64,000 bases of DNA, from NCBI GenBank assembly GCA_963657885.1, contig CAVKNZ010000001.1, positions 55,203 through 119,202 of the forward strand, given 5' to 3'. Position numbers and translations under genes: made by a program. Shown in pieces: positions 39,622 through 63,925 of the stretch. How positions within the stretch are numbered: position 1 is the first letter of the stretch; each line of letters starts with the position of its first letter. The stretch comes from Bacteroidaceae bacterium (lineage in GTDB: Bacteria > Bacillota_I > Bacilli_A > RFN20 > CAG-826). The notes under the pieces are model-generated. The model saw nothing but the letters and a program-made list of their open reading frames with translations. It was not told the origin of the DNA and searched no databases.

Positions 39622-40648
39622 AATTAAACCTTATTCAAATAATAAGCTTGTTGCATTAGTTCAGCGAATTGCTCGTTGGTGGCTTGCTCATTGGTATTCT
39701 TTTAGCGATAAACATCCAAAATTTGCCAGTCTTTTATATAAAATAAGCTTCTTTTTCATCTTTTCAATGGCGGTTACTTTATGGCAATTTCTCATCATGG
39801 TTTTCTTGCCATATGCCTTTGAAGGTATTTGGAATGTACCATTTTGTTTTCCACGTATTTCATTAGGACTTAAAGATGCTTTAGGTAATGATTTATATTT
39901 TGGGATTTTTAATGAGCCTGCGCAGGTGATGGTTGGCAACACTTTATCGCAAGCTTATACATCTAACGATGTCGATGTTTTATTAGCTCAAGGAGGAGTT
40001 GTTAAAGTTGGCGGACTTGGTAATTTCATTGCTTTTGAAATTGCTGTTTTTACCGCCCAATGCATTAACTTTCCGCTTCAAAGAAACATCACTTATAAAT
40101 CTAAAGGCAACCCTTATTTTCAAGCCTTTATGTATTTTGTCGGGTGGATCTTTGTTTCTTTATTCACTAATGCCTTATGGGGAATAGCTAATCCATTATT
40201 ATTATCTTGGCAAGTAAATGATGTCGTCATCGGTTTATTAAAGACTGTTCTTACCGGCGGTGTATCCATGTTTATTTTCTTCTTTATCTTTTTGCTTATT
40301 TTCCCCGACTTAAATAAAAGTGCGGAGAAAGCAGCGAAAAGATATAAAAAAGCCGAAAATAAAAATGCTGATGAAAAGAAGAAAGCTGAGCTATTTAAAA
40401 AGATGGTGGATGCGACTAATAAAGCTAAGATTGAAAATGCTCGTTTGAAGGCTATTCAATGCGAATCGCTATATAATGGAAAAGCAATTTCTTATCATTC
40501 TTATTTAGAAAAAGCGAAGAATCCAAAGCTTGCTGATGAAGAAGTAAATGAATTAAATGATATTGTTTCCAAGAAATATGAAGAAGCTATTAAAGCTAAA
40601 GAGAATATGCTTTTAGCAAAAAGCGAATATGAAAGAATTAAAAGATAA
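39608..40648 (+). CDS. Hypothetical membrane protein (about 5 TM) with a K/E-rich C-terminal coiled-coil tail
   Basis: Start taken as ATG 39608 (MEEIEIKPYS), overlapping the GH3 stop by 14 nt; the ORF track gives 39536. Hydrophobic core. The last 100 aa, KAAKRYKKAENKNADEKKKAELFKKMVD..., are predicted coiled-coil. Confidence 0.45.
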   Translation: MEEIEIKPYSNNKLVALVQRIARWWLAHWYSFSDKHPKFASLLYKISFFFIFSMAVTLWQFLIMVFLPYAFEGIWNVPFCFPRISLGLKDALGNDLYFGIFNEPAQVMVGNTLSQAYTSNDVDVLLAQGGVVKVGGLGNFIAFEIAVFTAQCINFPLQRNITYKSKGNPYFQAFMYFVGWIFVSLFTNALWGIANPLLLSWQVNDVVIGLLKTVLTGGVSMFIFFFIFLLIFPDLNKSAEKAAKRYKKAENKNADEKKKAELFKKMVDATNKAKIENARLKAIQCESLYNGKAISYHSYLEKAKNPKLADEEVNELNDIVSKKYEEAIKAKENMLLAKSEYERIKR

Positions 40649-41765
40649 TAAATATGATTTCTTAATTGTTGGGGCGGGGCTATTTGGCTCAACTGTCGCT
40701 AATAGACTAACTAGTTTAGGAAAAAAAGTTTTAGTAATTGATAAAAATCCCTTTGTTGGAGGAAATATTTATACTGAACAAATCGAAGGAATTCATGTTC
40801 ATAAATTCGGCGCGCACATTTTTCATACGTCTAATAAAAAAATATGGGATTATGTGAATTCATTTATGGACTTTATTCCTTTTGTTAATTCACCAATTGC
40901 TAATTATAAAGGCGAATTATACAACCTTCCTTTCAATATGAATACGTTCATAAAGATATTTCCTGAAGCTAAATCAATAGATGAAGTTAAGCAATGCATT
41001 GAGCAAGAAAAAAAGAAAGCAAACATAACATCTATCAATAATTTAGAAGATCAAGCCATTTCAATGGTGGGAACTTCTATTTATGAAATATTAATTAAAG
41101 GCTATACCGAAAAGCAATGGGGAAAATCAGCGAAAGATTTGCCTGTATCTATCATTAAAAGAATCCCTTTAAGATTCACATTTGATAACAATTATTTTAA
41201 TGATACTTATCAAGGAATACCGAAAGATGGTTATACAAACTTTATCAAAGCTTTACTTAATGGAAGTGATGTTAAACTTAATGCGAATTTCTTTAAAAAT
41301 GAAGACGAGTATTTAAAGATTGCTAATAATGTTATCTATAGTGGAAGGATTGATGAATTCTTTGATTATAAATTTGGAAAACTAGAATATCGAAGTGTTG
41401 ATTTTAAAACCAGTGTTCTTGATAGAGAAGTTTTTCAAGGTGTCGCGGTGATGAATTTCACTGATAGAGAAACTCCATATACACGCATTATTGAGCACAA
41501 GTTTTTTGATCGCTTTAACAATTCAAAAAAGACAGTTATATCTTATGAATATCCTTCATTAGATAATGAAAATAATAATCCATGTTATCCATTAAATGAT
41601 AAAAAGAACAATGATATTTATTCGCTTTATTTAGCTGAATCTAAAAAGCTTAAAAATGTTTACTTCGGAGGAAGATTAGCATTATATAAATATTTTGATA
41701 TGGATGATGTCATTGAAGAAGCTTTTAAACTTATAGACGAACTAATAAAAAGCAAAGTAGTTTGA
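40629..41765 (+). CDS. glf: UDP-galactopyranose mutase (flavoenzyme; galactofuranose precursor)
   Basis: 378 aa. YDFLIVGAGLFGSTVANRL FAD motif. GGNIYTE ... HVHKFGAHIFHT ... YSGRIDEFFDYKFGKLEYRS are conserved Glf signatures. Confidence 0.9.
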   Translation: MKELKDNKYDFLIVGAGLFGSTVANRLTSLGKKVLVIDKNPFVGGNIYTEQIEGIHVHKFGAHIFHTSNKKIWDYVNSFMDFIPFVNSPIANYKGELYNLPFNMNTFIKIFPEAKSIDEVKQCIEQEKKKANITSINNLEDQAISMVGTSIYEILIKGYTEKQWGKSAKDLPVSIIKRIPLRFTFDNNYFNDTYQGIPKDGYTNFIKALLNGSDVKLNANFFKNEDEYLKIANNVIYSGRIDEFFDYKFGKLEYRSVDFKTSVLDREVFQGVAVMNFTDRETPYTRIIEHKFFDRFNNSKKTVISYEYPSLDNENNNPCYPLNDKKNNDIYSLYLAESKKLKNVYFGGRLALYKYFDMDDVIEEAFKLIDELIKSKVV

Positions 41766-41788
41766 TATTTAAATATTAGTAAATTCTT

Positions 41789-41925
41789 ATTGGTGCATTT
41801 TGGTGCATTTTTTGGTGCAAATAACAGCATTTAATCTTACATCGCAATACAAAAATAACGATAATATCGAAGTAATTTAGCATATATATTTATTGGTGCA
41901 CTTTGGTGCATTTTTTGGTGTAAAT
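41789..41925. repeat. Two copies about 100 bp apart of a 33-34 bp element, each made of three tandem TGGTGCA heptamers spaced 10-13 bp, in the promoter region of the downstream AlbA_2 gene
   Basis: Copy 1 at 41789-41822: TTGGTGCATTTTGGTGCATTTTTTGGTGCAAAT. Copy 2 at 41892-41925: TTGGTGCACTTTGGTGCATTTTTTGGTGTAAAT. Gene ATG at 41969. Confidence 0.7.
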
Positions 41926-41968
41926 TGTTTATTAATATGATAATATAAAGCTGCAGAAAGGAGCATTT

Positions 41969-43393
41969 ATGGCCTTACCAACAAATATAAATACAATTCT
42001 AAACCCTAATATTGTCGAAAGCGTTCGCATTGAACTTAAAGAAGGCTTCAACGTTGAAAGTATTATGCATACAATATGTGCTTTCGCTAACGATATCGAT
42101 AATTTTTGTGGCGGTTACATCATCATCGGAATTAGCGATAAAAATGAAGTAATTGGTTTTCCTCGAGATAAATTTGATAGTTTACAAAAAGAAGTATTTA
42201 GATATTCAAAAAAATGCATAGAGCCATCATATGTTCCTCAAATTGAATTAGTTAACTATGACGATAAAGATGTCGTTGTTATTTGGTGTCCTTCTGGAGA
42301 AGAGAAGGCTTATAAATGCTACGAGCATGTTTTCAAAGAAAAGAAGGAAACAAGATATCTATGCTATATTCGTAAAGGATCTTTAACAGTTGTTGCTTCT
42401 AGAGAAGAAGAAAAAGAATTATATAATCTTGCTAGTTATACTCCTTTTGATGATCGCGTAAATTATAAATACGATTTAACTGTCATTAATCGAAATATTT
42501 TAAAAGACTATTTGATGGAAACTCAATCTCATCTATTGTCTAATTTTGATAATCAAAGCACTGAAGATTTGCTTTTAGATTTAAGAGTTATTGGAGGCCC
42601 TAAGGAGGATTATCGTCCAAAAAATATCGCTTTATTGATGTTTACTGATAAGCCTTCAAATTTTATTCCCTATTCTTATATAGAATTAACGATTTTAAAA
42701 GATAAAGAAGGGGACGAAATCATTGAAAAAACTTTTGATTCTCCCTTATACAAACAATATATCGATTGCATGGATTATATCAAAAATAAAATCATTGAAA
42801 AAAAGACAATTAAGGTCGAAGGAGATTTTAAATCGACTGTTGTTTATAACTACTCTTATGAAGTGCTTGAAGAAGTTATCGCCAATGCGATTTTGCATAA
42901 GTCATATCAAATAAATGAGCCAGTTTCTGTAAGAGTGGAATCGGACAAGATTGAAATCACCAATGTTCCGGGCTTTGATAGAACGATAAGCGACTCTTCT
43001 ATTCAAGAACTTAAACCTAAATCAAAACGCTACACCTCTCGTCGAATTGCTGAATTCTTAAAAGAATTAGGCATTGTCGAAGCTAAAAATACTGGTTATC
43101 CGCGCATCGTAAAACGAAGCAAAGAAAATGGCTCCCCCTTACCTATCATAGAAATGAATAAAGAACGTGATTATGTCACAGTTATCATTCCTATACATAA
43201 AGCTTTCTTAAACGAAAATTTATCATTACGGGACCGTATTATTGACTATTTAAATGAAAAAGATATGAGCAAGACTGAACTTGCTAATGCGCTTGGCTAT
43301 CCGCGAGTTACAAATTCTTTGACGTATCAGTTAAATAAGTTAATTGATGAAAAGAAGGTTGCTGTTCATAATCGAAAATATTATCTTTGTTAA
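41969..43393 (+). CDS. AlbA_2 (Schlafen-like, 'divergent AAA/AAA-4') domain protein with HATPase_c_4 domain and C-terminal winged HTH; putative transcriptional regulator / 'ATP-binding protein'
   Basis: 474 aa. N-terminal ESVRIELKEGFNVESIMHTICAFANDIDNFCGGYIIIGISDKNEVIGF (AlbA_2). Central EEVIANAILHKSYQINEPVSVRVESDKIEITNVPGF (HATPase_c_4-like). C-terminal HTH (MSKTELANALGYPRVTNSLTYQLNKLIDEKKV). Confidence 0.7.
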   Translation: MALPTNINTILNPNIVESVRIELKEGFNVESIMHTICAFANDIDNFCGGYIIIGISDKNEVIGFPRDKFDSLQKEVFRYSKKCIEPSYVPQIELVNYDDKDVVVIWCPSGEEKAYKCYEHVFKEKKETRYLCYIRKGSLTVVASREEEKELYNLASYTPFDDRVNYKYDLTVINRNILKDYLMETQSHLLSNFDNQSTEDLLLDLRVIGGPKEDYRPKNIALLMFTDKPSNFIPYSYIELTILKDKEGDEIIEKTFDSPLYKQYIDCMDYIKNKIIEKKTIKVEGDFKSTVVYNYSYEVLEEVIANAILHKSYQINEPVSVRVESDKIEITNVPGFDRTISDSSIQELKPKSKRYTSRRIAEFLKELGIVEAKNTGYPRIVKRSKENGSPLPIIEMNKERDYVTVIIPIHKAFLNENLSLRDRIIDYLNEKDMSKTELANALGYPRVTNSLTYQLNKLIDEKKVAVHNRKYYLC

Positions 43394-43403
43394 TCTTAAT
43401 TAG

Positions 43404-45611
43404 TTAATTAAAATACAATAACGTATCTCGATGCAGTAGATATTCGCTTTGTTCAAACAGTGAATAGTTTATCTTTATATCAGTTGCTGAATCATATATT
43501 TCTTTTGTTGGATACAATGCTTTTATTTGACTGATAGTTTTTATGTTGTTGTCTTTATCTTTTAGTTCAGTTGTTTCACTTATAAGAGTATGAGTTTCAA
43601 CAGTTAATATGCCTAAGAAAGACGAATCATTTTTCAATGCATTTAAATCTGAATATGAATAATAACTTAAAGCGGGTTTACTAGAGAAAAGCATCAAAGT
43701 GAAATTTGATTTTGATAGGCGATAGCTAACTTGGATGCTATTTGGTTCGCCATTTTCTAAATCAATATAGAAAAGTAATTCATAACGGTTTGCTTCATTA
43801 ACAGTTAGTTTCTTGTTACTAGAATCAGCTTTTATAGAAATTGGTTTATCATCACCTATTGGATAAACTTGGTTGTCGTTATTTATAACTCCATTTCCGT
43901 TTGCGATTTGATTATTTAGAAAATCAATTAACGTTGATTCCATCGGAGTGAAGGTAAACGAAACTGTTGATGAGGTGACAAACTTAGAATATAAAAGCGA
44001 TAAAGTTTCGTCTTCTTCTAAAGAGGTATCGCGAGTGAAATAAAATGTTTTAGATTCTGTTACTGTTACAAAATTATGCCTATAGATGATTGATTCTGAG
44101 GCATCTTCATATTTATCTAATGAACCGCTTAAATGGGTGCCGGCTAAGCGATATTCATATTGTTTTCTAATGCCGATAACATAGACAAGAGGATAGCCGT
44201 TAATTGTGGCGTAGCCATATTCATCTGCGGTGTTTTTAGAGCCTATTACTTTTATATATTTATTTGTCGCATTAAAGGAGTTGACGGCATTTGTGACATT
44301 TGTTGTAGCTATAGTTTTATCATAGTCATCATGCGCGTGAGCAAAATATAGATCAAAGCCATAATAGCCTTCCTCTAATGACAAGTTCTTTATCGCTTGA
44401 TTGTCTAACAAGCTAGTCCAATTGCCTGACCAAGAGCCATTATAGTCTAAAGGGTCAACATCCAATTGGATTGAGAACGTTTCATCACTACTTATATAAA
44501 CGTTATTTGTGAAATAGTTTATCCCTCCAACAGTGTTATTACTTGTTTGTTCTAAAGGGATTGTATATCTATTTGGATAAGAAATTTCATCGTCTTGCTT
44601 CTTATTATAATTAGTTCCTGGATTAACTCTAAATTTCATAAAGGAGGTATACATATTATTAATAAGTTGAGGCTTTCCGCTGTTTTTCGAGGCAAAAACT
44701 GGATAAAGATAGATGGTGTTATCATTTAAGCTTGATCCATCGATCGCTATAGAAGTGCTTCCGGTCGCGGTTAAGTTATCAACATAAGATAGTGACGTTG
44801 AAGAAGTTATAACTTGATCGGTGGTGACATCTTGTACGCCGTAATCGCCAATTTTATAAGGCGTTCCGCTTATCGCGGCTCCGCCTTGCCCAACAAGAGT
44901 GCCACTTGTTTCTGTTTCATATTTATCCCATATGGTATAACGACTTCTTTCTTCCGCTAAAGCTTTATCATAGGTCCAACCGATAAATTCTGGACCAAAG
45001 CCAAGATAGTCTTTATATACTGATTGAGCAATTATTTTTGATAATTTTGAGATAGGGATGTTGTTTTCAGCTTCTATCATCACGTATTTGCTAGTTTCAA
45101 CGATATTTAACTCTTCATTAGGAAGAATATAACCTGTCCATCTTCTTTTTGGATGACGTTTTATAAGTTCAGTATCGTTATTATTAAAACTTAAATTCGC
45201 ACCTGTTGAAGATTCTACCGATAGATAATAATAAGATACATCTGTCCATGGATATTGAGGATTGTAGGTGACATTGCTAAAATCAGCTCCGCTTTCATTA
45301 GAATGTCTTAAGCAATAAGGCTCTTCGCTATTGTAGGGATTATCAACGTGCTCTGCGATTTCTAATGGATCAGTGACTGTGCTTCCATCTTCTTTTATTA
45401 ATTCTGAACCTGTTGAATAATATGGTGAAGCAAAGAAATAGACGCGGAAGACATTACTTTTATCGACGCTATTAAGATGGGCGTTTTGCCCATATGTATC
45501 GATATTTTCTTTCTTCACCTCTTTTTCAGGAAAAACAAACAAAGAAAAAGCTACTGATGGAACAGTTAGTAATAGTAGTGATGCTAATGTTAACAGTATG
45601 TATTTCTTCAT
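43404..45611 (-). CDS. Large secreted/surface protein of unknown function, carrying the shared N-terminal motif; last gene of the SipW-like operon
   Basis: 735 aa. N-terminus MKKYILLTLASLLLLTVPSVAFSLFVFPEKEVKKEN shares the F[AS]x[FW]VF...E[VI]K..N motif with the two upstream paralogous N-termini. S/T/N/Y-rich, consistent with a beta-rich extracellular protein. Confidence 0.5.
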   Translation of the reverse strand: MKKYILLTLASLLLLTVPSVAFSLFVFPEKEVKKENIDTYGQNAHLNSVDKSNVFRVYFFASPYYSTGSELIKEDGSTVTDPLEIAEHVDNPYNSEEPYCLRHSNESGADFSNVTYNPQYPWTDVSYYYLSVESSTGANLSFNNNDTELIKRHPKRRWTGYILPNEELNIVETSKYVMIEAENNIPISKLSKIIAQSVYKDYLGFGPEFIGWTYDKALAEERSRYTIWDKYETETSGTLVGQGGAAISGTPYKIGDYGVQDVTTDQVITSSTSLSYVDNLTATGSTSIAIDGSSLNDNTIYLYPVFASKNSGKPQLINNMYTSFMKFRVNPGTNYNKKQDDEISYPNRYTIPLEQTSNNTVGGINYFTNNVYISSDETFSIQLDVDPLDYNGSWSGNWTSLLDNQAIKNLSLEEGYYGFDLYFAHAHDDYDKTIATTNVTNAVNSFNATNKYIKVIGSKNTADEYGYATINGYPLVYVIGIRKQYEYRLAGTHLSGSLDKYEDASESIIYRHNFVTVTESKTFYFTRDTSLEEDETLSLLYSKFVTSSTVSFTFTPMESTLIDFLNNQIANGNGVINNDNQVYPIGDDKPISIKADSSNKKLTVNEANRYELLFYIDLENGEPNSIQVSYRLSKSNFTLMLFSSKPALSYYSYSDLNALKNDSSFLGILTVETHTLISETTELKDKDNNIKTISQIKALYPTKEIYDSATDIKINYSLFEQSEYLLHRDTLLYFN

Positions 45612-45615
45612 TTAT

Positions 45616-46383
45616 TTATACCTTTGCTAGGAAAAAGGAAATATCGATAGATGAGTTATTGATAGCCTCGATGTTACTTTTCATCTTCTCATTTAGCATC
45701 TTTTCTGAATGGAAATATGAAGGAGAAAAGGAGCCAGAATAATTCCTGGAGTTATATACTCCGTTAAATCGAGAATATTTAAAATCGATGGAAAAATGGT
45801 GATAGCTGACTAATTGTCCTCCTAATGGAGTGAATTCTAAAATCTTATTTGTGTAGACAATGTTATTTACGTTATCGACTTTTTCGATAAATGATGATGA
45901 TGAATCAGTGTCCAAGTTAGTTACTTGTTTAGGCGAGATTATATCTAAAATTGATGATGATTTAGGATAAGGAATCTCTTCTCCAGCAATTGGAATGAGA
46001 TTTACCCCGCGAGTATCACTATCTTTTAAAGTTAATTGTAAGTAAATCGCAAGCGGACCATTTTCATACATTGTAGGAGAAGTATATTCGATGATGAAAT
46101 TTCTTTTCTTTGTTGGATTATCGCTTCTAGCTAAATCGATGCTTTCATAACCAAGCTCCAAATGCGTTTTTAAACTTGTCTCCTCTATTTCATCTTTATA
46201 TGTTCCATTATCTAAATAGACAAGGCGCATTTCTCCATAGTCTTGGTTCTTTTCGATTTCTATATTGACTATATTGTTTGCCTTAACTTCTGTGTTTTTA
46301 AAAACAAATATCGCAAAACCACTTCCAATAAGAAGGACAGGAACAAGCAAGAAGTATAACGTTAACAAGATTTTCTTTCTCAT
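45616..46383 (-). CDS. Secreted protein of unknown function with the shared IGSGFAIFVF N-terminal motif
   Basis: 255 aa. N-terminus MRKKILLTLYFLLVPVLLIGSGFAIFVFKNTEVKANN. 4-nt start/stop overlap with the upstream signal peptidase gene. Confidence 0.5.
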   Translation of the reverse strand: MRKKILLTLYFLLVPVLLIGSGFAIFVFKNTEVKANNIVNIEIEKNQDYGEMRLVYLDNGTYKDEIEETSLKTHLELGYESIDLARSDNPTKKRNFIIEYTSPTMYENGPLAIYLQLTLKDSDTRGVNLIPIAGEEIPYPKSSSILDIISPKQVTNLDTDSSSSFIEKVDNVNNIVYTNKILEFTPLGGQLVSYHHFSIDFKYSRFNGVYNSRNYSGSFSPSYFHSEKMLNEKMKSNIEAINNSSIDISFFLAKV

Positions 46384-47357
46384 TTTTCTTTACCATCTTC
46401 TTCTTGAGCTATAACCTCTTTTTGCTCTATACATATCGCTTCGATATCTTTTTCTAAGATGAGCATGAAGCGGTGGTTATATGGTTTATTTAGTCGATCT
46501 AATAAGAAGGAATATAAGCCCATCATCACGAAAGCGACAAAGACAATGATGATGCCAATGTTAGACTGCATATAAGAGATGAAGTAGCCAAAGGCTAGAT
46601 TCTTTTCACCATGAAAGTGTTCGCTTTGATGGACCCCAACAATCAAATCTTTTTTAACTTTGATTTCGCCAGTTAATGATGATGAGTTTGCGTCACCTCT
46701 AAAGGTGTATAACGGTTCATTGTTTTCATCATATTCAACGTATATAAGTCGATGTACAATAGTGACATAGTTTCCTCCGTTGCTATCTTTTTGCATCTTA
46801 AAGGCGACGACATCAAATGGTTTGATGTTATTAATATATTCTTCTTTGTTGCTTATCGAAATATAGGCAAATTGAGGAATTCTATCAGCCTCATTAGGTT
46901 TACCATTTTCATCGAGAAGATAAGTGTTACCTTTATAGGCTCTTTCCATTGAATCAGTTTGAATGACTAAGACCGCCTTATCGCCTAACCACATCTGATC
47001 GCCACTAGCCTTGATGGATAAAGAGACGCCAATCATGATGGTAAAGTAGACAAATAACAAGGCGATGAGGCCATCACTGACTATTGAAATGATTCTATTT
47101 GTTCTTTTATTAGCCTTTATTTCTTTATCGATATCTACAAATGATGTCGATTTATTTTTCTTGAGTCTTTTATAGATATATTTTGATGCACTTTCTCGAA
47201 TTAGCTCATCATCAAGACCATATTCTAATGATCGTTTTTTCTCATGGAAGAAAAAGGCCGCGAGGATTATAAACGCGGCGCTGAAGAGGATAATTACCAA
47301 TATTGCGATTAGCAGTATATAAAGATTGATACCGCTAGATCTGATGAAATAGTCCAT
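46380..47357 (-). CDS. ER/archaeal-type signal peptidase I (S26B, SipW-like; Ser/His dyad) with two extra N-terminal TM helices and a C-terminal TM
   Basis: 325 aa. Box B LVIQTDSMERAY (compare SGSMEP). Box C FDVVAF (compare GDIVVF). Box D TIVHRLIYV (His, not the Lys of S26A). Box E FRGDANSS (compare KGDNN). C-terminal TM IGIIIVFVAFVMMGLYSFLL, as in SipW. Confidence 0.6.
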   Translation of the reverse strand: MDYFIRSSGINLYILLIAILVIILFSAAFIILAAFFFHEKKRSLEYGLDDELIRESASKYIYKRLKKNKSTSFVDIDKEIKANKRTNRIISIVSDGLIALLFVYFTIMIGVSLSIKASGDQMWLGDKAVLVIQTDSMERAYKGNTYLLDENGKPNEADRIPQFAYISISNKEEYINNIKPFDVVAFKMQKDSNGGNYVTIVHRLIYVEYDENNEPLYTFRGDANSSSLTGEIKVKKDLIVGVHQSEHFHGEKNLAFGYFISYMQSNIGIIIVFVAFVMMGLYSFLLDRLNKPYNHRFMLILEKDIEAICIEQKEVIAQEEDGKEK

Positions 47358-47395
47358 CTAGCTACCTCCCACGCGGCACTTTTTATTTGATGCGA

Positions 47396-48016
47396 TTATT
47401 TTGACAAGACTTCAACTTTGTATTGCACAACGCGCGTAACTGCGGCTGACACGACAGTTTTTAACGCAGTGTATTCTGCCTTCTTAGTTGGTTCTTTTCC
47501 CGTTTTATAAGCAAATGTTGCACTGTTCCAATCGAATGTTTTAGCATTTTCTCCTAGAGTAAATGTATAGACACCATTTGTGTCATCATTAGCCTTTGTT
47601 GAGCCTGCATAGTTAACATCGACATAATCATATAAATCCTTGCCGAGTGTTAACGTAACAGTCATTTGATAGTAGATTTTATCATTATCATGATCGATTG
47701 CATCAGGATCAGTTGTTTCCCTTTCCTTATACACAGTTGTTTCTTTTGCTCCAAGTTCTAAATAAATACCTTTGGCTTCAGCAGTGCTTGTAATTCCTAA
47801 TTCAGCCCTTTTAGCTGCGGTTTGATCAAAGACAATACTAAATTCGTCAGCAACTTGCTCAAACTCGCCAACATCAGCAAGCTTTGTTATCTTTGCAGAC
47901 AAGTTTTTTGTTTCAGTAATCTGCGTTCCGGAAAATACCCAAATTGAAAAACCTGATCCAATGACGGCGACTCCCGCCATAAGTGGTAATAAGCTTTTTA
48001 TTAAAGTTCTTTTCAT
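47396..48016 (-). CDS. Small secreted protein (206 aa), possible TasA-like matrix/fibre subunit; first gene of the SipW-like operon
   Basis: N-terminus MKRTLIKSLLPLMAGVAVIGSGFSIWVFSGTQITETKNLSAKI. Compare the B. subtilis TasA N-terminus LVGGGTWAAFNDIKS...ASGTLDLSAKEN. Strong SD (AAGGAGG) upstream. Confidence 0.45.
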   Translation of the reverse strand: MKRTLIKSLLPLMAGVAVIGSGFSIWVFSGTQITETKNLSAKITKLADVGEFEQVADEFSIVFDQTAAKRAELGITSTAEAKGIYLELGAKETTVYKERETTDPDAIDHDNDKIYYQMTVTLTLGKDLYDYVDVNYAGSTKANDDTNGVYTFTLGENAKTFDWNSATFAYKTGKEPTKKAEYTALKTVVSAAVTRVVQYKVEVLSK

Positions 48017-50291: not shown

Positions 50292-51665
50292 TTATTTTTT
50301 GAAATAAATATCATCGCCGTCAAAGCGGTATTTCATTTTGATTTTGTCGGTCAAAAAACCATTTATTGAGGCAAAACCAAAGCCTTTTATATCAATTTCT
50401 TTAATTGCTTTTATTTTTGCAATTTCTTCTTTTATTAGTTCATCATCTAATTTGTTTTGTAGATATTTAACTTCGATAATGTCATAGCCATTCTCTTTCT
50501 TTATAGCTATATCGAATTCTCCGTTTTTCTTATTTATTGCATCATCGTAATAGTAAGAGCCAACATTATAGATTCCTTTTAATGTTCTATTTTTAATTAA
50601 AAATGAAATGTATTGCTTCACAATATTTTCAAATCTAAAGGAGATGAATGTATTGATGCTTTTTTCGATGTAGGTTTCATAAAAAACTTCTTTCCCTAAA
50701 AGGTTAATAATGTTTTCTTTTCCATAAATATAAGTATAGTAAAATCTTAGAACATTATTTGATAGAGAATAAGATATTTTTTTATTGTCGTTTATTCGAT
50801 TTATTGGAACATTTTCTTCGATGAATTCCATTTCGAATAGATTGTTTAATTGCTTGCTTAATAAGCCGTTTTGCTTATAATGCAGTTCATTTTCTAATTG
50901 TCGATATTTGATTTTCCCGTTTCCTATTATTTTGAATATAGTTTCATAATTAAGTTTACTAGAAAGATCGCTTGTATAATTTTGACTTGCATAGTTATAG
51001 ACGGAACTTAAATTATTTAAAAGTGTCATGCATATATTTTCTTTTAGAGTTTTGCTTTCATCTAATTGAGCTAAGATGTATGGTGAACCGCCAAACACTG
51101 AATAAAAGGCAACCTTATCGTAATTAGATAAGTGAGGATAAAATTCACTCGCAGATAGATAATCGAATTCTTTCAAATTGATGATAGTTTTAAATCGTCC
51201 ATACATTGGATTCTTATCTTTTATTAAAGTTTTCATCATGCCGATGTTTGAGCCAGAAAGGATGATATTTAGATTTTTTGTATAATTAGCTAATAAATTT
51301 TGAAAAAGTGAATCTAGTTCATCCCCATTATTTCTTACATATAGATAAGGGAATTCATCTAAGGCAATCACGATGTGTTTATTTAATGTGTTCAAATAAT
51401 TAAATAAAGAAAAGAGCGAATCAAAGCTGATGTTTGATGGGACGATATTATATTGAGACAACAATTTAGCTAATTCATCTATGTTATCTTTCAATGTTGA
51501 TTTTAAGCATTCAAAATGAACAAATGTTAAACCTGATTGCTTTAATGCTTCATCGATTAATAGGCTTTTACCAACGCGACGATTTCCATAGATTAAAACA
51601 TGATTAGAAGGCTCATTTAGAGTATTTTTAATTGCTTGAATTTCTTCTTTTCTTCCGATGAACAT
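50292..51665 (-). CDS. AAA+ 'archaeal-type' ATPase (Arch_ATPase, PF01637-like) with C-terminal DUF234; 'ATP-binding protein'
   Basis: 457 aa. FIGRKEEIQAIKNTL...HVLIYGNRRVGKSLLIDE (Walker A) ... IVIALDEFPYL (Walker B). The C-terminal 120 aa (GEFDIAIKKENGYDIIEVKY) look DUF234-like. Confidence 0.7.
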   Translation of the reverse strand: MFIGRKEEIQAIKNTLNEPSNHVLIYGNRRVGKSLLIDEALKQSGLTFVHFECLKSTLKDNIDELAKLLSQYNIVPSNISFDSLFSLFNYLNTLNKHIVIALDEFPYLYVRNNGDELDSLFQNLLANYTKNLNIILSGSNIGMMKTLIKDKNPMYGRFKTIINLKEFDYLSASEFYPHLSNYDKVAFYSVFGGSPYILAQLDESKTLKENICMTLLNNLSSVYNYASQNYTSDLSSKLNYETIFKIIGNGKIKYRQLENELHYKQNGLLSKQLNNLFEMEFIEENVPINRINDNKKISYSLSNNVLRFYYTYIYGKENIINLLGKEVFYETYIEKSINTFISFRFENIVKQYISFLIKNRTLKGIYNVGSYYYDDAINKKNGEFDIAIKKENGYDIIEVKYLQNKLDDELIKEEIAKIKAIKEIDIKGFGFASINGFLTDKIKMKYRFDGDDIYFKK

Positions 51666-51744
51666 CGATTTCTCCTTTTTGTTGAAAAAATTTTCAGTGA
51701 AATAATTTTCAACTAAATAATATATCGATTATTTGCTTATAGCA

Positions 51745-59497: not shown

Positions 59498-59521
59498 ATA
59501 TTAATTAAATGTAAAACGATA

Positions 59522-59563
59522 AAATGTCGCTTTATTTGTCGCTTTAAATGTCGCTTTATTTTT
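59522..59563. repeat. 42-bp element: three 12-bp-period tandem TGTCGCTTTA units. Direct-repeat copy A, abutting the stop of the AlbA_2 gene
   Basis: AAATGTCGCTTTATTTGTCGCTTTAAATGTCGCTTTATTTTT. Identical copy at 60957-61000 on the other side of the gene. Confidence 0.75.
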
Positions 59564-60911
59564 ATATGCTTTTAAGAACTTGCCAACTGCCTGTTTTCTT
59601 TGAACCTGTTCTACTGACCGCCCCGATTGAAATAAGTTTTTTTAAGCATCTTTGAACTGTTCTTCGATTGATATTTCCTTTTTCGGCGAGTTCTATCTGC
59701 GTTTGTTTAGGGTTTTCTTTTAAAGAGTTTAAAACCTTGGTTTCAGTTTTAGATAATTTATCTTTTATGGTATTATCGGTTTTTTTATTTCCACTTTTTC
59801 CTTTTCGATAGAAGATAAAGGAAAAGCCATCGCTATAAGTTGTATAACTTGTTTTGACGTTATTGGCTTTGCAAGCTGCATATACCTTTTTAAATCCGCT
59901 TCCAAACATCTCCACATCTTTGCATTTATATAATGTATTGAGGATCAATTTGTTTCTAGGTTGGCTTTTTCTATTTGAATTAACAAACATATCAGGATTT
60001 AAATTCGCTGGGAATTCACCAGGATTATAGATTTCTATCATCGTGGGTGTTATATCTATTTCGTTTTCAGTTACTCCTCGATAATTCGCGTGAGCGAATG
60101 AATTAACAACTATTTCTCTTATCGCTTCAACTGGTACTTCTGGGATTTCTTTTCTTGCGATGTTTTCACCTAGTTCGACCCGCCAATCCATTTTCTCTTT
60201 TATGTATGAATTGGCATAACGTATAAGGTTATAGATGTTATCTTCCACTCTTCTTATATCTGAGAAATTAATCCTTTCATCGCTAACGTATGTGGCGATT
60301 TTTAATACGACAGGTTTTTTGCTCGAGAAAAGATAAAACCCCGCGTTAGTTAAAAAGTTATTTTCTAATAAGCCTAGACCAGTTAATAGAGCTTCTTCAT
60401 CATATATGCTCAATTCATCTAATCGACCGCAGGAAGTAGCTTCATCGTAAAATGAACGCAAAGCGATATGATCAACACTTTCTAAGCCGTATTTAGTTAA
60501 ATTGTTTTCCCATTTTGATGAAAAGTCTGTTGAAAACAAAATGCTTCTTAGCTCATCAGGAGTCATTCTTTCCGATCTATCAACAACTCGTTTGTAATAT
60601 ATTCCAAAGGATGAGTATGGTTTTTCTGAGCCGTTAAAATCAACTTTTATGCACATCTTATTATCTAGCGTTACTTCTTTGATTGTTGGATAAATTATTG
60701 GCAGTATAGCTTCTTTGCAAGTTCTAGCGATATCATCTAAGGTATGAGAGCCAATTTCTTGGCCACATACATCACCATTGGGCTTAACTCCAAAATAAAG
60801 CGTGCCAGATCCATGCTTATTTAAAATCGCGCATATATCATCCATTGCTTCTTTTATTTCACTCGTGGATTTTTTAAATTCAAGTTGTTCGTTTTCTCGT
60901 CCTAAGTTCAT
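59562..60911 (-). CDS. AlbA_2 (Schlafen-like) + HATPase_c_4 + C-terminal winged-HTH protein; paralogue of 41969-43393
   Basis: 449 aa. ENEQLEFKKSTSEIKEAMDDICAILNKHGSGTLYFGVKPNGDVCGQEIG (AlbA_2). REIVVNSFAHANYRGVTENEIDITPTMIEIYNPGEF (HATPase_c_4-like). C-terminal HTH TQIELAEKGNINRRTVQRCLKKLISIGAV. SD AGGAGA upstream. Confidence 0.7.
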   Translation of the reverse strand: MNLGRENEQLEFKKSTSEIKEAMDDICAILNKHGSGTLYFGVKPNGDVCGQEIGSHTLDDIARTCKEAILPIIYPTIKEVTLDNKMCIKVDFNGSEKPYSSFGIYYKRVVDRSERMTPDELRSILFSTDFSSKWENNLTKYGLESVDHIALRSFYDEATSCGRLDELSIYDEEALLTGLGLLENNFLTNAGFYLFSSKKPVVLKIATYVSDERINFSDIRRVEDNIYNLIRYANSYIKEKMDWRVELGENIARKEIPEVPVEAIREIVVNSFAHANYRGVTENEIDITPTMIEIYNPGEFPANLNPDMFVNSNRKSQPRNKLILNTLYKCKDVEMFGSGFKKVYAACKANNVKTSYTTYSDGFSFIFYRKGKSGNKKTDNTIKDKLSKTETKVLNSLKENPKQTQIELAEKGNINRRTVQRCLKKLISIGAVSRTGSKKTGSWQVLKSI

Positions 60912-60956
60912 ATTAAACTGTTCTCTCCTGCATTTATTATAGCGCGATGAAAAGAA

Positions 60957-61000
60957 AAATGTCGCTTTATTTGTCGCTTTAAATGTCGCTTTATTTTTTC
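60957..61000. repeat. Direct-repeat copy B of the 3x TGTCGCTTTA element, about 45 bp upstream of the AlbA_2 gene start (its promoter region)
   Basis: AAATGTCGCTTTATTTGTCGCTTTAAATGTCGCTTTATTTTT, identical to 59522-59563 in the same orientation. Confidence 0.75.
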
Positions 61001-61080: not shown

Positions 61081-62436
61081 TTAAAAGTCGTCGTTATTAT
61101 GCTCTAAGGCAAAAGTTAGATAATGGGGAATAGTAATTATTCCGTTTTCTTCTCCGATGTTATATTCGCCTATTTTTATCAATTTCACTTTCCCATAATG
61201 ATCAGGATGTTTCATGATGGTTTTGCTCGATTTTGTATTTCCGGTTGTAGATTTAGCTTCAATTAGAGTTGCATAGCCATCATAAGATATAACAAAATCA
61301 ATTTCCAAACCGCTTTCTTTCGCGTAATAGTAAGCGTCAATATCTGCTTTATATAGCGAATCGAAAACTATAGCTTCATAGATTGCACCTTTGCCTTGAC
61401 CTAAATTGTTATTTAATATCGCTCTTATTGTATCTATTCCATACATCGATGTGACTATTCCTATGTCTGTTGGAAATAGTTTAAATTGTGACGTTATTGC
61501 TTCACCGAATAATGGTAGAGAAGGCACTTCAACGTTGTAGACTTTTTTAACAATATGAGCTTGTCTTAAATATTCGATTGCGTCATTTTTATCATATTGT
61601 TTGCCAGTTTGAATTTTGCTGACAATATATCTTTTATTTTCTTTAGCTAAAAAGACTGGCATTAAATCGAAAGCATTTTCGATTCTAGCCATCTCACTTT
61701 TGTTAAAAATAGGCTTACCATCCTTACTTTTTCTTCTTCCGAAATCTGTTTTCATTTCAAAAACGATATTGTTAAGGACTTTATAAGCCTCTTTTATGCT
61801 CTTTGTTTCTAAATATGTGGCAATTACTTTTGGGAAGCCACCTATTGAAGCGTATTTTAAAAATAATTCTTTATATAAATTGTGTATGTTAGGATCTATT
61901 TTTTCTCTATTAGCAAAACAATTTATTAGATATTCAATTTGCTTTTCATCATAGCCATTTGCCCAAAGAAATTCTTCGAAGTCCATTGTTTTCATCTCAT
62001 ATATATCTTCTGAACCTGTTGGCGCGGGGCTATTATCACCTTTTACGTAGCTGTTTATGCCTAAAAGCGATCCGCTGGCGATGACAGAATAACGGCCATC
62101 TTCTTTGAATGATTTCAAAGACAATCTCGCTTTTGGACAGTCTTGTATTTCATCGAAAAATATCAACGTTGTCTCTGGTTTTATATTAGAATGCGGAAAT
62201 CTCAATGAAATATTTGATATGAGATCGTCGACATCTAAACTTTTTTCAAAATCAGCGGAATATTCTGGGTGCGTCCAAAAATTTATCATTATTAGTTTGA
62301 GATTATTTCGCTTAGCGAATTCCTTAATGCTTTCAGTTTTTCCACATTGCCTAATGCCGACAATCAAAGCAGGTATTTTGTCTTTTTTCTTTAACCAAGC
62401 ATCTAACTGCCTGTCTATTTTTCTACGGTAATACAT
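61081..62436 (-). CDS. AAA_14 ATPase with C-terminal DUF4143 domain ('ATP-binding protein')
   Basis: 451 aa. Walker A ALIVGIRQCGKTES. Walker B TLIFFDEIQD. C-terminal DUF4143-like region (KLFPTDIGIVTSMYG). Confidence 0.7.
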   Translation of the reverse strand: MYYRRKIDRQLDAWLKKKDKIPALIVGIRQCGKTESIKEFAKRNNLKLIMINFWTHPEYSADFEKSLDVDDLISNISLRFPHSNIKPETTLIFFDEIQDCPKARLSLKSFKEDGRYSVIASGSLLGINSYVKGDNSPAPTGSEDIYEMKTMDFEEFLWANGYDEKQIEYLINCFANREKIDPNIHNLYKELFLKYASIGGFPKVIATYLETKSIKEAYKVLNNIVFEMKTDFGRRKSKDGKPIFNKSEMARIENAFDLMPVFLAKENKRYIVSKIQTGKQYDKNDAIEYLRQAHIVKKVYNVEVPSLPLFGEAITSQFKLFPTDIGIVTSMYGIDTIRAILNNNLGQGKGAIYEAIVFDSLYKADIDAYYYAKESGLEIDFVISYDGYATLIEAKSTTGNTKSSKTIMKHPDHYGKVKLIKIGEYNIGEENGIITIPHYLTFALEHNNDDF

Positions 62437-62490
62437 TTAGCGAACCCTTTCTGAAAGTATTAGTTTTCTACTTAAAATATAAGAAAAACG

Positions 62491-62607
62491 AAAGGACTTT
62501 TCAAGCAATTTGTAAGAAATTCCGAGGGACTTTTCAGCCTGTTTGTAAGAATTTCCGAGCGACTTTCGACCCACTTTGTAAGAAATTCCGAGGGACTTTT
62601 TACTCTG
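62491..62607. repeat. About 3.5 tandem copies of a 33-bp direct repeat in the promoter region of the 61081-62436 gene
   Basis: Full units at 62509-62541 (TTTGTAAGAAATTCCGAGGGACTTTTCAGCCTG), 62542-62574 (TTTGTAAGAATTTCCGAGCGACTTTCGACCCAC) and 62575-62607 (TTTGTAAGAAATTCCGAGGGACTTTTTACTCTG). Partial unit at 62491-62508. Contiguous, no spacers. Confidence 0.75.
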
Positions 62608-62634: not shown

Positions 62635-63873
62635 TTAAATACTTTTCACTGGTACAATTAGCACATTTTCTGACAATGCACTTAAAGATTCAGAGGTGCA
62701 GACAATGCATCCTCTTCCTAATTCACAATGGCTACATTCTAGTTCTTTGAAGCTTGAAACATCGTTTAACGTATGCGTATCTCCGTATTTAGCTTCAACT
62801 GCATATAGCTTTCCTTGTTTAATGAAAACTAAATCAATTTCATGTTGATAGTAGTCACGGTAATAGTAAAATTGGGTTTCATCGCCGGCGTTATCGTAAC
62901 TCTTTTTGATTTCGTTTATGACAAATGTTTCAAATAATCTTCCTTTTAGGAAACTACGTGCTAACGTTTGCTTAGAATCTATACCAAGAAGATAGCAAGC
63001 AACCCCGGTGTCAAAGAAGTAAACTTTTGGAGTTCTTACAACTCTTTTAGTCCAGGAATATTCATAGTAGGGATAAATTAGATGGATGATTCCAGTTTTT
63101 ATCATTATGGAAATCCAAGTTTTTATACTCGTTGAAGATATGCCAATTTGCTTGGCGAGATTATCATAGTTTAGCTCTTGGCCTGTTAATGAGGCTATAA
63201 GGACTAAGAGATTATAAAATTTTGTTTCATCTTTTAATTCGATTAACTCTCTTACATCTTTTTGCAAATATGTTGAAACATAAGATGAATAAAAAATAGA
63301 TCTTTTTAAACCTTCATCATCGAATAATTCAGGCAGTTGCCCTTTTAGGATTAAATCAAGGACATCGCTTTGACTAAAAGATAGATGTTCACTTCTTTGA
63401 TGTATTTTTATTGGATCTGGTAAAAATGGAATATTATCTCTAGAAAAAATTTCGCTCATTGATAAAGTCGACATTTCTAATAAAGCAGCTCTTCCAGCGA
63501 GCGACTCTTTAGCTCTTTCCAATAAATCTTTGCGGCTTGAGCCAGAAAGAATATACATTCCGTTCGCAGCTTTATTGCCTTCAAGTCGGCGTTTTTCATT
63601 TACGATAAATTCGATTTCTTCAAATAACTCTACTGCCTTTTGGATTTCATCGATAATTAATGGAGCAGGGTGATTTGCTAAAAATGATCTAGGATCGCTT
63701 TGAGCTAACAATCTATTAGAATAATCATCCAATGTAACATAACAGAAGCCTTGCTTTTCATATATTTCAGTCAACAACGTCGTTTTACCAACTTGTCTAG
63801 GTCCGGTTAAAATCACGCAAGGGAAGTGCTTTAGCGAATAATCAATTACTTCTTTTATATGCCTTTTTATCAT
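62635..63873 (-). CDS. AAA_14 ATPase with C-terminal DUF4143 domain ('ATP-binding protein'); intact paralogue of the frameshifted 58260-59497 copy
   Basis: 412 aa. Walker A CVILTGPRQVGKTTLL. Walker B LIIDEIQKAVE. DUF4143-like C-terminus with KVYFFDTGVACYLLGI. Confidence 0.75.
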   Translation of the reverse strand: MIKRHIKEVIDYSLKHFPCVILTGPRQVGKTTLLTEIYEKQGFCYVTLDDYSNRLLAQSDPRSFLANHPAPLIIDEIQKAVELFEEIEFIVNEKRRLEGNKAANGMYILSGSSRKDLLERAKESLAGRAALLEMSTLSMSEIFSRDNIPFLPDPIKIHQRSEHLSFSQSDVLDLILKGQLPELFDDEGLKRSIFYSSYVSTYLQKDVRELIELKDETKFYNLLVLIASLTGQELNYDNLAKQIGISSTSIKTWISIMIKTGIIHLIYPYYEYSWTKRVVRTPKVYFFDTGVACYLLGIDSKQTLARSFLKGRLFETFVINEIKKSYDNAGDETQFYYYRDYYQHEIDLVFIKQGKLYAVEAKYGDTHTLNDVSSFKELECSHCELGRGCIVCTSESLSALSENVLIVPVKSI

Positions 63874-63881
63874 TTTTCAAA

Positions 63882-63925
63882 CCTCAACTTCGGAATTTCC
63901 AAAGTTCAACTTCGGATTTTCATAA
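63882..63925. repeat. Two tandem copies of a 21-22-bp direct repeat (CAACTTCGGAWTTTC core) immediately upstream of the 62635-63873 gene
   Basis: TCAACTTCGGAATTTCCAAAG / TTCAACTTCGGATTTTCATAAG at 63882-63925. The window ends at 64000, so the array may be incomplete. Confidence 0.4.

What the first reader, a model, noticed from the sequence alone, without database searches (positions are those of the whole stretch)
41789..41925. Twin arrays of three helically phased TGGTGCA heptamers upstream of the first AlbA_2 regulator gene
Two 33-34-bp elements sit 100 bp apart. In each, TGGTGCA is spaced at 10 and 12-13 bp, about one helical turn, so the sites lie on one DNA face. This is the classic geometry for cooperative binding of a multimeric regulator. 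The second array overlaps the likely promoter of 41969-43393.
Basis: seen in the sequence. Interest (0 to 1): 0.55.

Follow-up and report, generated by a model that had tools for sequence, protein, structure and literature searches.

The report
Docking-site repeats around a Schlafen-ATPase gene
Two 30-bp blocks, each made of three evenly spaced TTGGTGCA motifs, lie in front of a gene for a Schlafen-nuclease/ATPase protein with a DNA-binding tail. Comparison with relatives indicates that the blocks are that protein's own docking sites, a family-wide feature I could not find described, and that the "twin" layout is probably a leftover of a duplicated gene copy.

Summary
Window 41780-41822 and 41883-41925 are a 43-nt direct repeat. 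Each copy holds three TTGGTGCA units spaced 10 and 12 bp (the last unit is TTGGTGTA). Shuffles give no such array.

The downstream gene (41969-43393) encodes a Schlafen/AlbA_2 domain, a GHKL ATPase and a C-terminal winged helix ("Schlatpase-HTH").

In every orthologue examined, a triple array sits at a fixed distance (17-18 nt) before an extended -10. More distant homologues carry three to seven direct repeats of 11-13 bp near their own promoters (32/59 loci, against 5/75 control regions). The repeated motif changes with the recognition helix of the winged helix. The second AlbA_2 gene of this window has 3x AAAGCGACA instead.

The twin layout is not conserved. In most orthologues, and at the window's second gene, the second array lies directly after the stop codon, giving [array][gene][array] with near-perfect 29-43-bp direct repeats. 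Array 1 here is probably the boundary of a decayed neighbouring cassette, as in locus L032.

Binding, the sign of regulation and any cassette mobility are inferred, not shown.

The parts
41780..41822 (+). Direct-repeat copy 1, containing array 1: TTGGTGCA at 41790, 41800 and 41812 (spacing 10, 12). No -10 element follows it at the canonical distance.
41823..41882 (.). 60-bp spacer between the arrays. Probably a strongly decayed remnant of a neighbouring cassette copy; the support is weak.
   Evidence: It aligns in register with the L032 spacer (p about 0.04). The L032 spacer is a clear 3' gene remnant (p 0.001-0.007). There is no significant match to gene ends directly.
41883..41925 (+). Direct-repeat copy 2, containing array 2: TTGGTGCA at 41893 and 41903, TTGGTGTA at 41915. 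This is the promoter-proximal operator; its third unit occupies about -38 to -31.
41938..41946 (+). Extended -10 (TGATAATAT). The hexamer starts 18 nt after the last heptamer, as in the orthologues (17-18 nt).
41957..41963 (+). Ribosome-binding site AAAGGAG.
41969..43393 (+). Gene for a 474-aa SLFN_AlbA_2 + HATPase_c_4 (GHKL) + C-terminal winged-helix protein ('Schlatpase-HTH').
   Evidence: Pfam; AlphaFold model with pLDDT 87; Foldseek hits to 3LMM, SLFN11/SLFN5 N-domains, histidine-kinase CA domains and winged helices
43211..43390 (+). Part coding for the winged helix (residues about 415-474). The predicted recognition helix is 449-460, preceded by R446-V-T.
   Evidence: Secondary structure H420-430, H435-441, H449-460 and a beta-hairpin 464-473; aligns to the Pfam HTH_24/MarR region of the second gene; weak HTH hits
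60956..60998 (-). Upstream array of the window's second AlbA_2 gene: 3x AAAGCGACA at a 12-bp period, ending 18 nt before the -10 TATAAT (60936-60941).
59562..60911 (-). Second AlbA_2 + HATPase_c_4 + HTH_24/MarR gene (449 aa), 21% identical to the first.
59521..59563 (-). Downstream array of the second gene. It is a perfect 43-nt copy of 60956-60998 and abuts the stop codon, overlapping it by 2 nt (59562-59563).

Best explanation
Each array is a set of three head-to-tail docking sites for the C-terminal winged helix of the protein encoded next to it, a Schlafen/AlbA_2 + GHKL-ATPase + wHTH protein. Array 2 covers the -35 region and the two helical turns upstream of an extended -10 promoter. Occupancy by an oligomer of the protein would therefore block RNA polymerase and keep the gene (a likely toxic nuclease) at a low level, i.e. 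autorepression. Array 1 is not part of a designed twin operator. It is most likely the outer boundary array of a neighbouring cassette copy that has decayed to about 60 bp. Tandem copies are the expected product of unequal recombination between the direct-repeat arrays that flank this gene in most relatives. Array 1 may still bind the protein.

Shown here: the repeats, their conservation, their fixed promoter geometry, the motif/helix covariation and the domain architecture.

Inferred: who binds, the sign of regulation, and the origin of array 1.
For: (1) The array is present and co-oriented with the gene in all orthologues examined (64-81% aa identity), while flanking DNA is unrelated. The extended -10 hexamer starts 17-18 nt after the third heptamer at the gene-proximal arrays. 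The regex missed L002/L027, where TGATATTAT lies at the same 18-nt distance on reading L002.
(2) More distant homologues carry different triple repeats at the same place: TGGTGCG (L103), GGCCCAttttt (L105), GTCGTGAGTTA (Amedibacterium, L111). The paralogue in the same window has AAAGCGACA x3 with the same 18-nt gap to its -10.
(3) Across the family, at least 3 direct repeats at 9-13-bp spacing occur within 160 nt upstream in 32/59 loci, against 5/75 control upstream regions and 7/295 shuffles.
(4) The recognition-helix segment tracks the motif: RV(V/T)NS goes with TTGGTGC[AG], SKTF(R/K) with AGTCGT..., T(D/S)T(V/L)SKA with GGGGTAAG, and so on.
(5) The C-terminus is a winged helix in a confident model.
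(6) In many clades the repeats lie between the -10 and the RBS (listing, L111). That position fits repression, not activation.
(7) A preprint reports that the GHKL domain of this 'Schlatpase' module drives ATP-dependent tetramerisation (10.64898/2026.05.29.728809). This gives a basis for multimeric binding. The N-box residues E302 and N306 are invariant here.
(8) For array 1: L032 has the same twin layout, and its spacer is a 3' gene remnant in register with the array (p 0.001-0.007). L011, L022, L016 and L012 show [array][C-terminal remnant][array].
Against: There are no binding or expression data. Three sites do not map simply onto a tetramer. The downstream copy of the array after the stop codon is not explained by simple promoter autorepression. 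The window's spacer has only marginal similarity to the L032 spacer (p about 0.04) and none to gene ends, so the origin of array 1 is weakly supported. The same 3x TTGGTGCA arrays occur next to tyrosine-integrase genes, with no Schlafen gene nearby, in Coriobacteriia and some viral contigs. Another binder for this motif therefore exists in other organisms. The control upstream regions were taken from crude ORF calls and may be partly coding.
Confidence: 0.6

Rival explanations
1. The arrays are recombination-protein binding sites (integrase arm-type or excisionase sites). The array-flanked gene is then a non-autonomous integrative cassette moved in trans by a tyrosine recombinase encoded elsewhere.
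For: Identical 3x TTGGTGCA arrays lie 15-20 nt upstream of tyrosine-integrase genes in L019 and L026. In L019 two such arrays, 5289 bp apart, flank an int + HTH_17 + IstB-like unit. They also lie just after integrase genes in L030/L023 and in viral contig L080, and next to a tRNA gene in L028. Flanking direct repeats of 29-43 bp, perfect in 6 of 10 gene-flanking pairs, surround the gene in varied contexts. Within-locus copies are more alike than between-locus copies (p = 1.5e-4).
Against: No integrase or transposase was found among the 49 window ORFs scanned, and there is no tblastn hit to the two integrases. In Bacilli genomes every array hit was next to an AlbA_2 gene or its remnant. The motif changes with the AlbA_2 protein's own recognition helix, including within one genome, which a trans-acting integrase does not predict. 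No core-type inverted repeat is conserved at the boundaries. Arrays of scrambled octamers are also found in viral contigs (8 and 2, against 15 for TTGGTGCA), so the shared octamer may be coincidence.
Confidence: 0.1
2. The arrays are primarily an assembly platform that controls the nuclease rather than the promoter. Tandem sites would template or sequester oligomers of the Schlafen-ATPase protein. The gene's own flanking arrays would hold it inactive, and similar phased repeats on invading DNA (iterons, arm sites) would trigger it.
For: [quoted passage not shown] Here the wHTH takes the place of that sensor. Acidic residues E17, E22 and D42 and the GHKL N-box are conserved, so the protein is probably an enzyme and not only a repressor. 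Arrays lie on both sides of the gene. TTGGTGCA arrays exist on integrative elements and phage contigs.
Against: This is entirely inferential. TTGGTGCA arrays are only 2- to 7-fold more frequent in viral contigs than two scrambled controls. No defence-system neighbours were found here (PADLOC). It is not exclusive of autorepression.
Confidence: 0.15
3. The arrays are intrinsic terminators or insulators: array 1 would end the glf operon, and downstream arrays would end the AlbA_2 transcript.
For: A simple scan calls GGTGCACTTTGGTGCATT + T-run in array 2 terminator-like. That hairpin folds better than shuffles (-11.4 kcal/mol, z -3.4). Array 1 lies 25 nt after the glf stop.
Against: The array 2 hairpin depends on one window-specific C (41901). 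Array 1 and the reverse strands are not better than shuffles (z -0.5, +0.2). The downstream arrays of L005, L008, L003 and the second window gene give z -0.8, +0.2, -1.4 and -1.6. The unrelated motifs of other clades have no hairpin logic.
Confidence: 0.03

Closest known systems
Direct-repeat boxes of winged-helix regulators that replace the -35 element
   Same: Seven- to eight-bp direct repeats at about one helical turn, read head to tail by a winged helix, occupying the -35 position of a promoter that lacks a good -35.
   Different: The binder here is not a response regulator. It carries a Schlafen nuclease-like domain and a GHKL ATPase. There are three or more units, a second copy of the array usually follows the stop codon, and the likely outcome is repression.
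Plasmid iterons with autoregulating Rep proteins (own knowledge; review PMC4980987 appeared in the search but was not read)
   Same: Tandem direct repeats next to the gene of the winged-helix protein that binds them. The motif is specific to each protein variant, so variants in one cell can coexist. Two arrays could be bridged, as in handcuffing.
   Different: There is no replication initiator, DnaA box or AT-rich unwinding element. The units are 10-13 bp rather than 17-22 bp. The locus is chromosomal, among housekeeping genes.
SLFN-pAgo / 'Schlatpase' supradomain (bioRxiv 10.64898/2026.05.29.728809) and CRISPR-associated Schlafen Cash (PMC13462974)
   Same: The same SLFN_AlbA_2 + PF13749 GHKL module (PADLOC pAgo model hit over residues 29-333; Pfam). 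The preprint states that most of the 60,692 Schlatpase proteins are small and have no further domain or a short C-terminal HTH, and that more than 90% of structurally annotated C-terminal tails contain an HTH. That is the class found here.
   Different: Those papers characterise fusions to Argonaute or Csx15 sensors. In the passages read, neither mentions DNA targets, repeat arrays or autoregulation for the stand-alone HTH class.
Integrase arm-type sites and Xis X1-X1.5-X2 filaments; CIME-type cassettes flanked by att repeats (own knowledge)
   Same: Three phased direct repeats, with copies at both ends of a DNA segment in direct orientation. The identical octamer array is found next to integrases in other phyla.
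   Different: There is no recombinase in the window or in the cassettes and no conserved core site. The motif co-varies with the cargo protein itself.
DIP2311 of Corynebacterium diphtheriae (PDB 3LMM), an uncharacterised structural-genomics target
   Same: Best full-length structural match (Foldseek E 7e-22; phmmer E 2e-6).
   Different: No function or DNA target is recorded for it. Sequence identity is 15-18%.

Membership tests
Schlatpase-HTH protein (SLFN_AlbA_2 + GHKL HATPase_c_4 + C-terminal HTH) | PF04326 Schlafen/AlbA_2 domain at the N-terminus | tested here: met
   E 5e-17, residues 17-140; Foldseek hits to SLFN11 and SLFN5 N-domains and to 2KYY
Schlatpase-HTH protein (SLFN_AlbA_2 + GHKL HATPase_c_4 + C-terminal HTH) | PF13749 GHKL-type ATPase domain with an N-box | tested here: met
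   E 6e-9, residues 318-406; invariant E302 and N306; histidine-kinase CA-domain structural hits
Schlatpase-HTH protein (SLFN_AlbA_2 + GHKL HATPase_c_4 + C-terminal HTH) | Short C-terminal helix-turn-helix | tested here: met
   Three helices plus a beta-hairpin at 420-473 in a pLDDT-87 model; winged-helix structural hits; aligns with the HTH_24/MarR region of the paralogue; Pfam hits on the isolated tail are sub-threshold
Schlatpase-HTH protein (SLFN_AlbA_2 + GHKL HATPase_c_4 + C-terminal HTH) | Active Schlafen nuclease site | tested here: inconclusive
   E17, E22 and D42 are conserved, and Cash uses E17/D22 (PMC13462974). No structural superposition of the sites was made.
Autoregulatory direct-repeat operator of a winged-helix protein | Two or more direct repeats at about one helical turn | tested here: met
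   Spacing 10 and 12 bp; 11-13 bp in other clades
Autoregulatory direct-repeat operator of a winged-helix protein | Overlap with the core promoter of the regulator's own gene, conserved in orthologues | tested here: met
   The extended -10 starts 17-18 nt after the last unit at the gene-proximal arrays of the clade (L002 read by eye). Promoters are predicted, not mapped.
Autoregulatory direct-repeat operator of a winged-helix protein | Motif co-varies with the DNA-reading residues of the protein | tested here: met
   Table of 30 loci; two paralogues with different motifs in one window. Shared descent was not corrected for.
Autoregulatory direct-repeat operator of a winged-helix protein | Physical binding by the gene product and an effect on transcription | not testable with these tools
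   Needs EMSA or footprinting and a reporter assay
Integrase arm-type / excisionase binding sites (att site) | A tyrosine recombinase gene adjacent or in the element | tested here: not met
   None among the 49 window ORFs scanned; no tblastn hit to the L019 or L026 integrases; none inside any AlbA_2 cassette
Integrase arm-type / excisionase binding sites (att site) | Core-type inverted repeats around a crossover region at the element boundary | tested here: not met
   No conserved inverted repeat. An inverted GCACCA upstream of the array occurs in some loci only, at 1-12-nt distances.
Plasmid iteron origin | An adjacent replication-initiator gene and an AT-rich unwinding element or DnaA boxes | tested here: not met
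   The neighbours are glf and an unknown convergent operon, in a chromosomal housekeeping context
Rho-independent terminator | A conserved G+C-rich hairpin followed by a T-run | tested here: not met
   Only array 2 folds better than shuffles; array 1 and four downstream arrays do not
Known structured RNA | Match to an Rfam model | tested here: not met
   No Rfam hit in the whole window at gathering thresholds

The most novel reading that the evidence does not exclude
The array-flanked Schlafen-ATPase-wHTH gene is a self-contained cassette of a new kind. Tandem DNA repeats would be the ligand that sets the oligomeric state of a tRNA-type nuclease. The copies flanking its own gene would keep it silent or sequestered, and similarly phased repeat arrays on incoming plasmids, phages or integrative elements would assemble the active form. 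The flanking direct repeats would also let the cassette duplicate, excise and spread. This would give the largest, so far function-less class of prokaryotic Schlafen proteins a DNA-sequence-specific sensing mechanism.
Probability: 0.12. Interest if true: 0.85.

Novelty: new variant of a known kind. Interest (0 to 1): 0.6.

Why it matters
According to a 2026 preprint, stand-alone Schlafen + GHKL ("Schlatpase") proteins that are small and have no further domain or a short C-terminal HTH are the majority of about 60,000 such prokaryotic proteins. No ligand or role is described for them in the passages I read.

The comparison started by this finding shows three things. First, these genes typically carry three to seven helically phased direct repeats by their own promoter. 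Second, the repeat sequence tracks the recognition helix. Third, in at least two very different lineages, both present in this window, the same array is repeated directly after the stop codon.

This gives each protein a predicted DNA target that can be tested with an oligonucleotide and a gel. It also offers a natural pair of orthogonal protein/site combinations in one genome, and a possible route to understanding how a potentially toxic nuclease is kept in check. If the cassettes are mobile, it would be an unusual one-gene element bounded by direct repeats.

Tried and rejected
- Intrinsic terminator reading: rejected. Only array 2 forms a better-than-random hairpin, and that depends on a window-specific base.
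- Rfam: nothing in the window.
- Literature search for the octamer returned only primers and the like. Searches on AlbA_2/HATPase_c_4 found no paper on repeat arrays at these genes.
- Empty-site test for mobility failed for lack of data. Exact-protein look-ups of both flanking genes returned only contigs of the same sample. The flanks of the solo arrays (L020, L013) and of the window match no other fetched locus.
- A generalised [array][gene][array] layout was not found in the 37-45%-identity homologues. Among the 71 metagenome loci only L116 (68-69% clade) reached an upstream/downstream common substring of 14 or more (41 nt). L117-L120 of the same clade share 13 nt.
- Window spacer as a remnant of the gene's own 5' or 3' end: not significant.
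- Integrase-linked TTGGTGCA arrays as evidence for a shared binder: two scrambled-octamer controls also give non-coding arrays in viral contigs (8 and 2, against 15). No homologue of the winged helix occurs in those elements. Most viral hits are 12-nt-period coding repeats of giant viruses.
- NCBIfam has no model for the protein. PADLOC gives only partial hits to pAgo/Aga models.

Full report
**1. The observation**

Window 41780-41822 and 41883-41925 form a 43-nt direct repeat, 88% identical and 103 bp start to start. Each copy contains three TTGGTGCA octamers spaced 10 and 12 bp. The sixth unit is TTGGTGTA.

Five of the six exact TGGTGCA heptamers in the 64 kb lie in these 137 bp. The triple pattern, even with two mismatches allowed, matches only these two sites and none of 100 shuffles. 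TRF also reports both arrays.

**2. Surroundings**

The upstream gene (40629-41765) is UDP-galactopyranose mutase, at the end of a glycosyltransferase/GH3 cluster. The downstream gene (41969-43393) has SLFN_AlbA_2 and HATPase_c_4 domains.

The window is ordinary chromosome: TsaBDE, PcrA, LigA, GatAB, GlnA, GlyA. There is no integrase or transposase among the 49 ORFs scanned, and Rfam finds nothing. Homologues point to uncultured gut and rumen Bacilli/Erysipelotrichales.

An AlphaFold model (pLDDT 87) shows three modules:
- an N-terminal Schlafen-like domain;
- a GHKL ATPase;
- a C-terminal winged helix (H420-430, H435-441, H449-460, hairpin 464-473).

The best structural match is the uncharacterised protein 3LMM. 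A 2026 preprint calls the first two domains the "Schlatpase" supradomain. It says most of the roughly 60,000 such proteins are small, with no further domain or a short C-terminal HTH (10.64898/2026.05.29.728809).

**3. Conservation at the promoter**

I fetched orthologous loci by exact-protein look-up, by a genome-wide scan for the array, and by a metagenome scan with a protein alignment.

Every orthologue (64-81% aa identity) has a triple TGGTG[CT][AG] array on the coding strand upstream of the gene. An extended -10 (TGnTAnnnT) has its hexamer starting 17-18 nt after the third unit. The regex missed this in L002/L027, where TGATATTAT lies at the same 18-nt distance on reading L002. The third unit therefore occupies the -35 position of a promoter with no good -35 hexamer.

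Array 1 of the window, the equivalent extra array in L032, and all downstream arrays lack such a -10.

**4. Covariation across the family**

More distant homologues have their own repeats in the same place:
- TGGTGCG x3 (L103);
- an inverted GCACCAA plus TTGGTGCG and TTGGTGAG (L102);
- GGCCCAttttt at an 11-bp period (L105);
- GTCGTGAGTTA x3 between the -10 and the RBS in Amedibacterium intestinale (L111).

The second AlbA_2 gene of this same window (59562-60911, minus strand, 21% identical) has 3x AAAGCGACA at a 12-bp period. That array again ends 18 nt before its -10.

In 59 diverse metagenomic homologues, 32 have at least three direct repeats at 9-13-bp spacing within 160 nt of the start codon. 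The comparison figures are 5 of 75 control upstream regions from the same contigs and 7 of 295 shuffles. The controls come from crude ORF calls, which is a caveat.

Aligning the C-terminal domains against the motifs shows that the N-terminal part of the recognition helix changes with the motif. It is the same where the motif is the same. This has not been corrected for shared descent. Two paralogues with different helices and different motifs in one genome argue for matched, orthogonal pairs.

I conclude that the arrays are most likely the cognate binding sites of the adjacent protein. In many clades the repeats lie downstream of the -10, so the common effect is more likely repression than activation.

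**5. The twin layout is not the conserved architecture**

The closest relatives (L115 at 81%, L021 at 80%, L002/L027 at 76%) have one upstream array and nothing after the stop codon.

Most orthologues at 64-74% have the second copy zero to a few nucleotides after the stop codon, giving [array][promoter + gene][array] with 1502-1507 bp start to start. These are L003, L005, L008, L014, L015, L025, L032, L033/31, L034/35 and L116-L120. L103 has the same layout.

The window's second gene also has it, with a perfect 43-nt repeat at 59521-59563 and 60956-60998.

The flanking repeats are 29-43 bp and perfect in 6 of 10 gene-flanking pairs. They extend a variable 3-12 nt into the promoter spacer. Copies within a locus are more alike than copies from different loci (mean edit distance 3.1 against 6.0, permutation p = 1.5e-4). 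They are therefore kept alike by duplication or gene conversion, not only by selection on the heptamers.

Neighbouring genes differ in nearly every case. This fits an island or mobile gene. At this level of divergence, however, loss of synteny alone does not prove mobility, and no empty site could be found.

**6. Origin of array 1**

L032 (a human-gut Bacillales MAG) has [array][62 bp][array][gene][array]. Its 62-bp spacer matches the 3' end of AlbA_2 genes, in register with the following array (p 0.001-0.007).

L011, L022, L016 and L012 show [array][C-terminal remnant of 285 to 120 bp][array] at one host position. The deletions all start at the 3' edge of the upstream array.

Tandem cassettes that share an array, followed by decay of one copy, therefore do occur. 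The window's 60-bp spacer aligns in register with the L032 spacer only marginally (p about 0.04) and not significantly with gene ends. The same origin for array 1 is plausible but not established. The twin spacings differ (103 against 92 bp), which argues against a designed helical phasing between the arrays.

**7. Alternatives**

Terminator: only array 2 forms a hairpin better than shuffles, and it depends on a window-specific base. Array 1 and four downstream arrays do not.

Recombination sites: the same 3x TTGGTGCA array lies beside tyrosine-integrase genes in Coriobacteriia. In L019 two arrays bracket an int/HTH_17/IstB-like unit, and L026 has one. It also lies beside a tRNA gene (L028), after integrase-like ORFs in Clostridia (L023, L030), and in some viral contigs (L080).

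This link is unexplained. Three observations weigh against a shared binder:
- those elements contain no homologue of the winged helix;
- scrambled octamers also form non-coding arrays in viral contigs (8 and 2, against 15);
- in Bacilli every array found is next to an AlbA_2 gene or its remnant.

The link may therefore be coincidental, or those arrays could be targets rather than relatives.

**8. How it probably works**

Inferred: ATP-dependent oligomers place three winged helices head to tail on one face of the DNA over -59 to -31. This shuts the extended -10 promoter. The oligomerisation rests on the GHKL behaviour described for SLFN-pAgo in the preprint and on the invariant N-box here.

The array after the stop codon in relatives could serve several roles, which I cannot separate:
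- a second anchor for looping or bridging;
- a sink for the protein;
- a substrate for recombination.

The conserved acidic residues of the Schlafen domain (compare Cash E17/D22 in PMC13462974) suggest that the protein is an enzyme whose level must be controlled. It is probably not a dedicated transcription factor.

**9. Novelty**

Direct-repeat operators and autorepression are familiar. Three things appear undescribed in the literature I could search:
- the link of such arrays to the stand-alone Schlafen-GHKL-HTH class;
- their clade-specific covariation;
- the array-gene-array cassette.

I rate the finding a new variant of a known kind, with moderate-to-good interest. It makes the DNA specificity of a very large uncharacterised family directly testable.

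Noticed in passing
window 59521-59563 and 60956-60998 (minus strand), around gene 59562-60911: The second AlbA_2/HATPase_c_4/HTH_24 gene is flanked by perfect 43-nt direct repeats, each 3x AAAGCGACA at a 12-bp period. One ends 18 nt before its -10 and the other starts at the stop codon.
   Followed up: yes
window 62480-62600: About 3.7 tandem copies of a 33-nt unit (TAAGAAAnnCCGAGGGACTTTTCA...) fill the intergenic region upstream of the AAA_14/DUF4143 gene 61081-62436 (minus strand).
   Followed up: no
window 63874-63927 and 51683-51721: A 22-nt tandem repeat lies directly upstream of the AAA_14/DUF4143 gene 62635-63873 (minus). A 15-nt tandem repeat lies 18-56 nt upstream of the ATPase_2/DUF234 gene 50292-51665 (minus). 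Other orphan ATPase genes in this window therefore also carry promoter-proximal tandem repeats.
   Followed up: no
L019 48-78 and 5337-5366; L026 3358-3387; L028 4277-4306; L080 14074-14104: The same 3x TTGGTGCA array lies beside tyrosine-integrase genes in Coriobacteriia MAGs. In L019 two arrays 5289 bp apart bracket int + HTH_17 + IstB-like genes. It also lies next to a tRNA gene, and about 70 nt after an integrase gene in a viral contig. No Schlafen gene is present in any of these. The relation to the window's arrays is unexplained.
   Followed up: partly
L011 7556-7905, L022, L016 4140-4365, L012: A nested series of internal deletions at one host site: [array][C-terminal gene remnant of about 285, 200, 190 and 120 bp][array]. 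All deletions begin at the 3' edge of the upstream array and retain only the winged-helix-coding end. The site lies next to IS66 fragments.
   Followed up: partly
window 41829-41842: Two Logan contigs of run SRR13434591 that are otherwise identical to the window end and begin here, between array 1 and the spacer. This may reflect structural heterogeneity at the arrays or only assembly.
   Followed up: no
L002, L005, L011/L014/L015/L022, L013, L034, L102 (left edge of the upstream array): Many orthologous arrays have a fourth, inverted unit (GCACCA/ACACCA) 1-12 nt upstream of the first direct unit. In L102 it is part of both flanking copies. The window's arrays lack it.
   Followed up: partly
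window 43404-48016 (minus strand): Four consecutive ORFs (735, 255, 325 and 206 aa), convergent on the AlbA_2 gene, have no Pfam or PADLOC hit.
   Followed up: no
L021, L027, L031/L033, L034/L035 (bins labelled Coriobacteriaceae, Lachnospiraceae, Gemmiger, Roseburia hominis from one study): AT-rich contigs carrying AlbA_2 genes 65-80% identical to the window's gene sit in bins of unrelated, higher-GC taxa. This probably reflects mis-binning rather than cross-phylum transfer.
   Followed up: no
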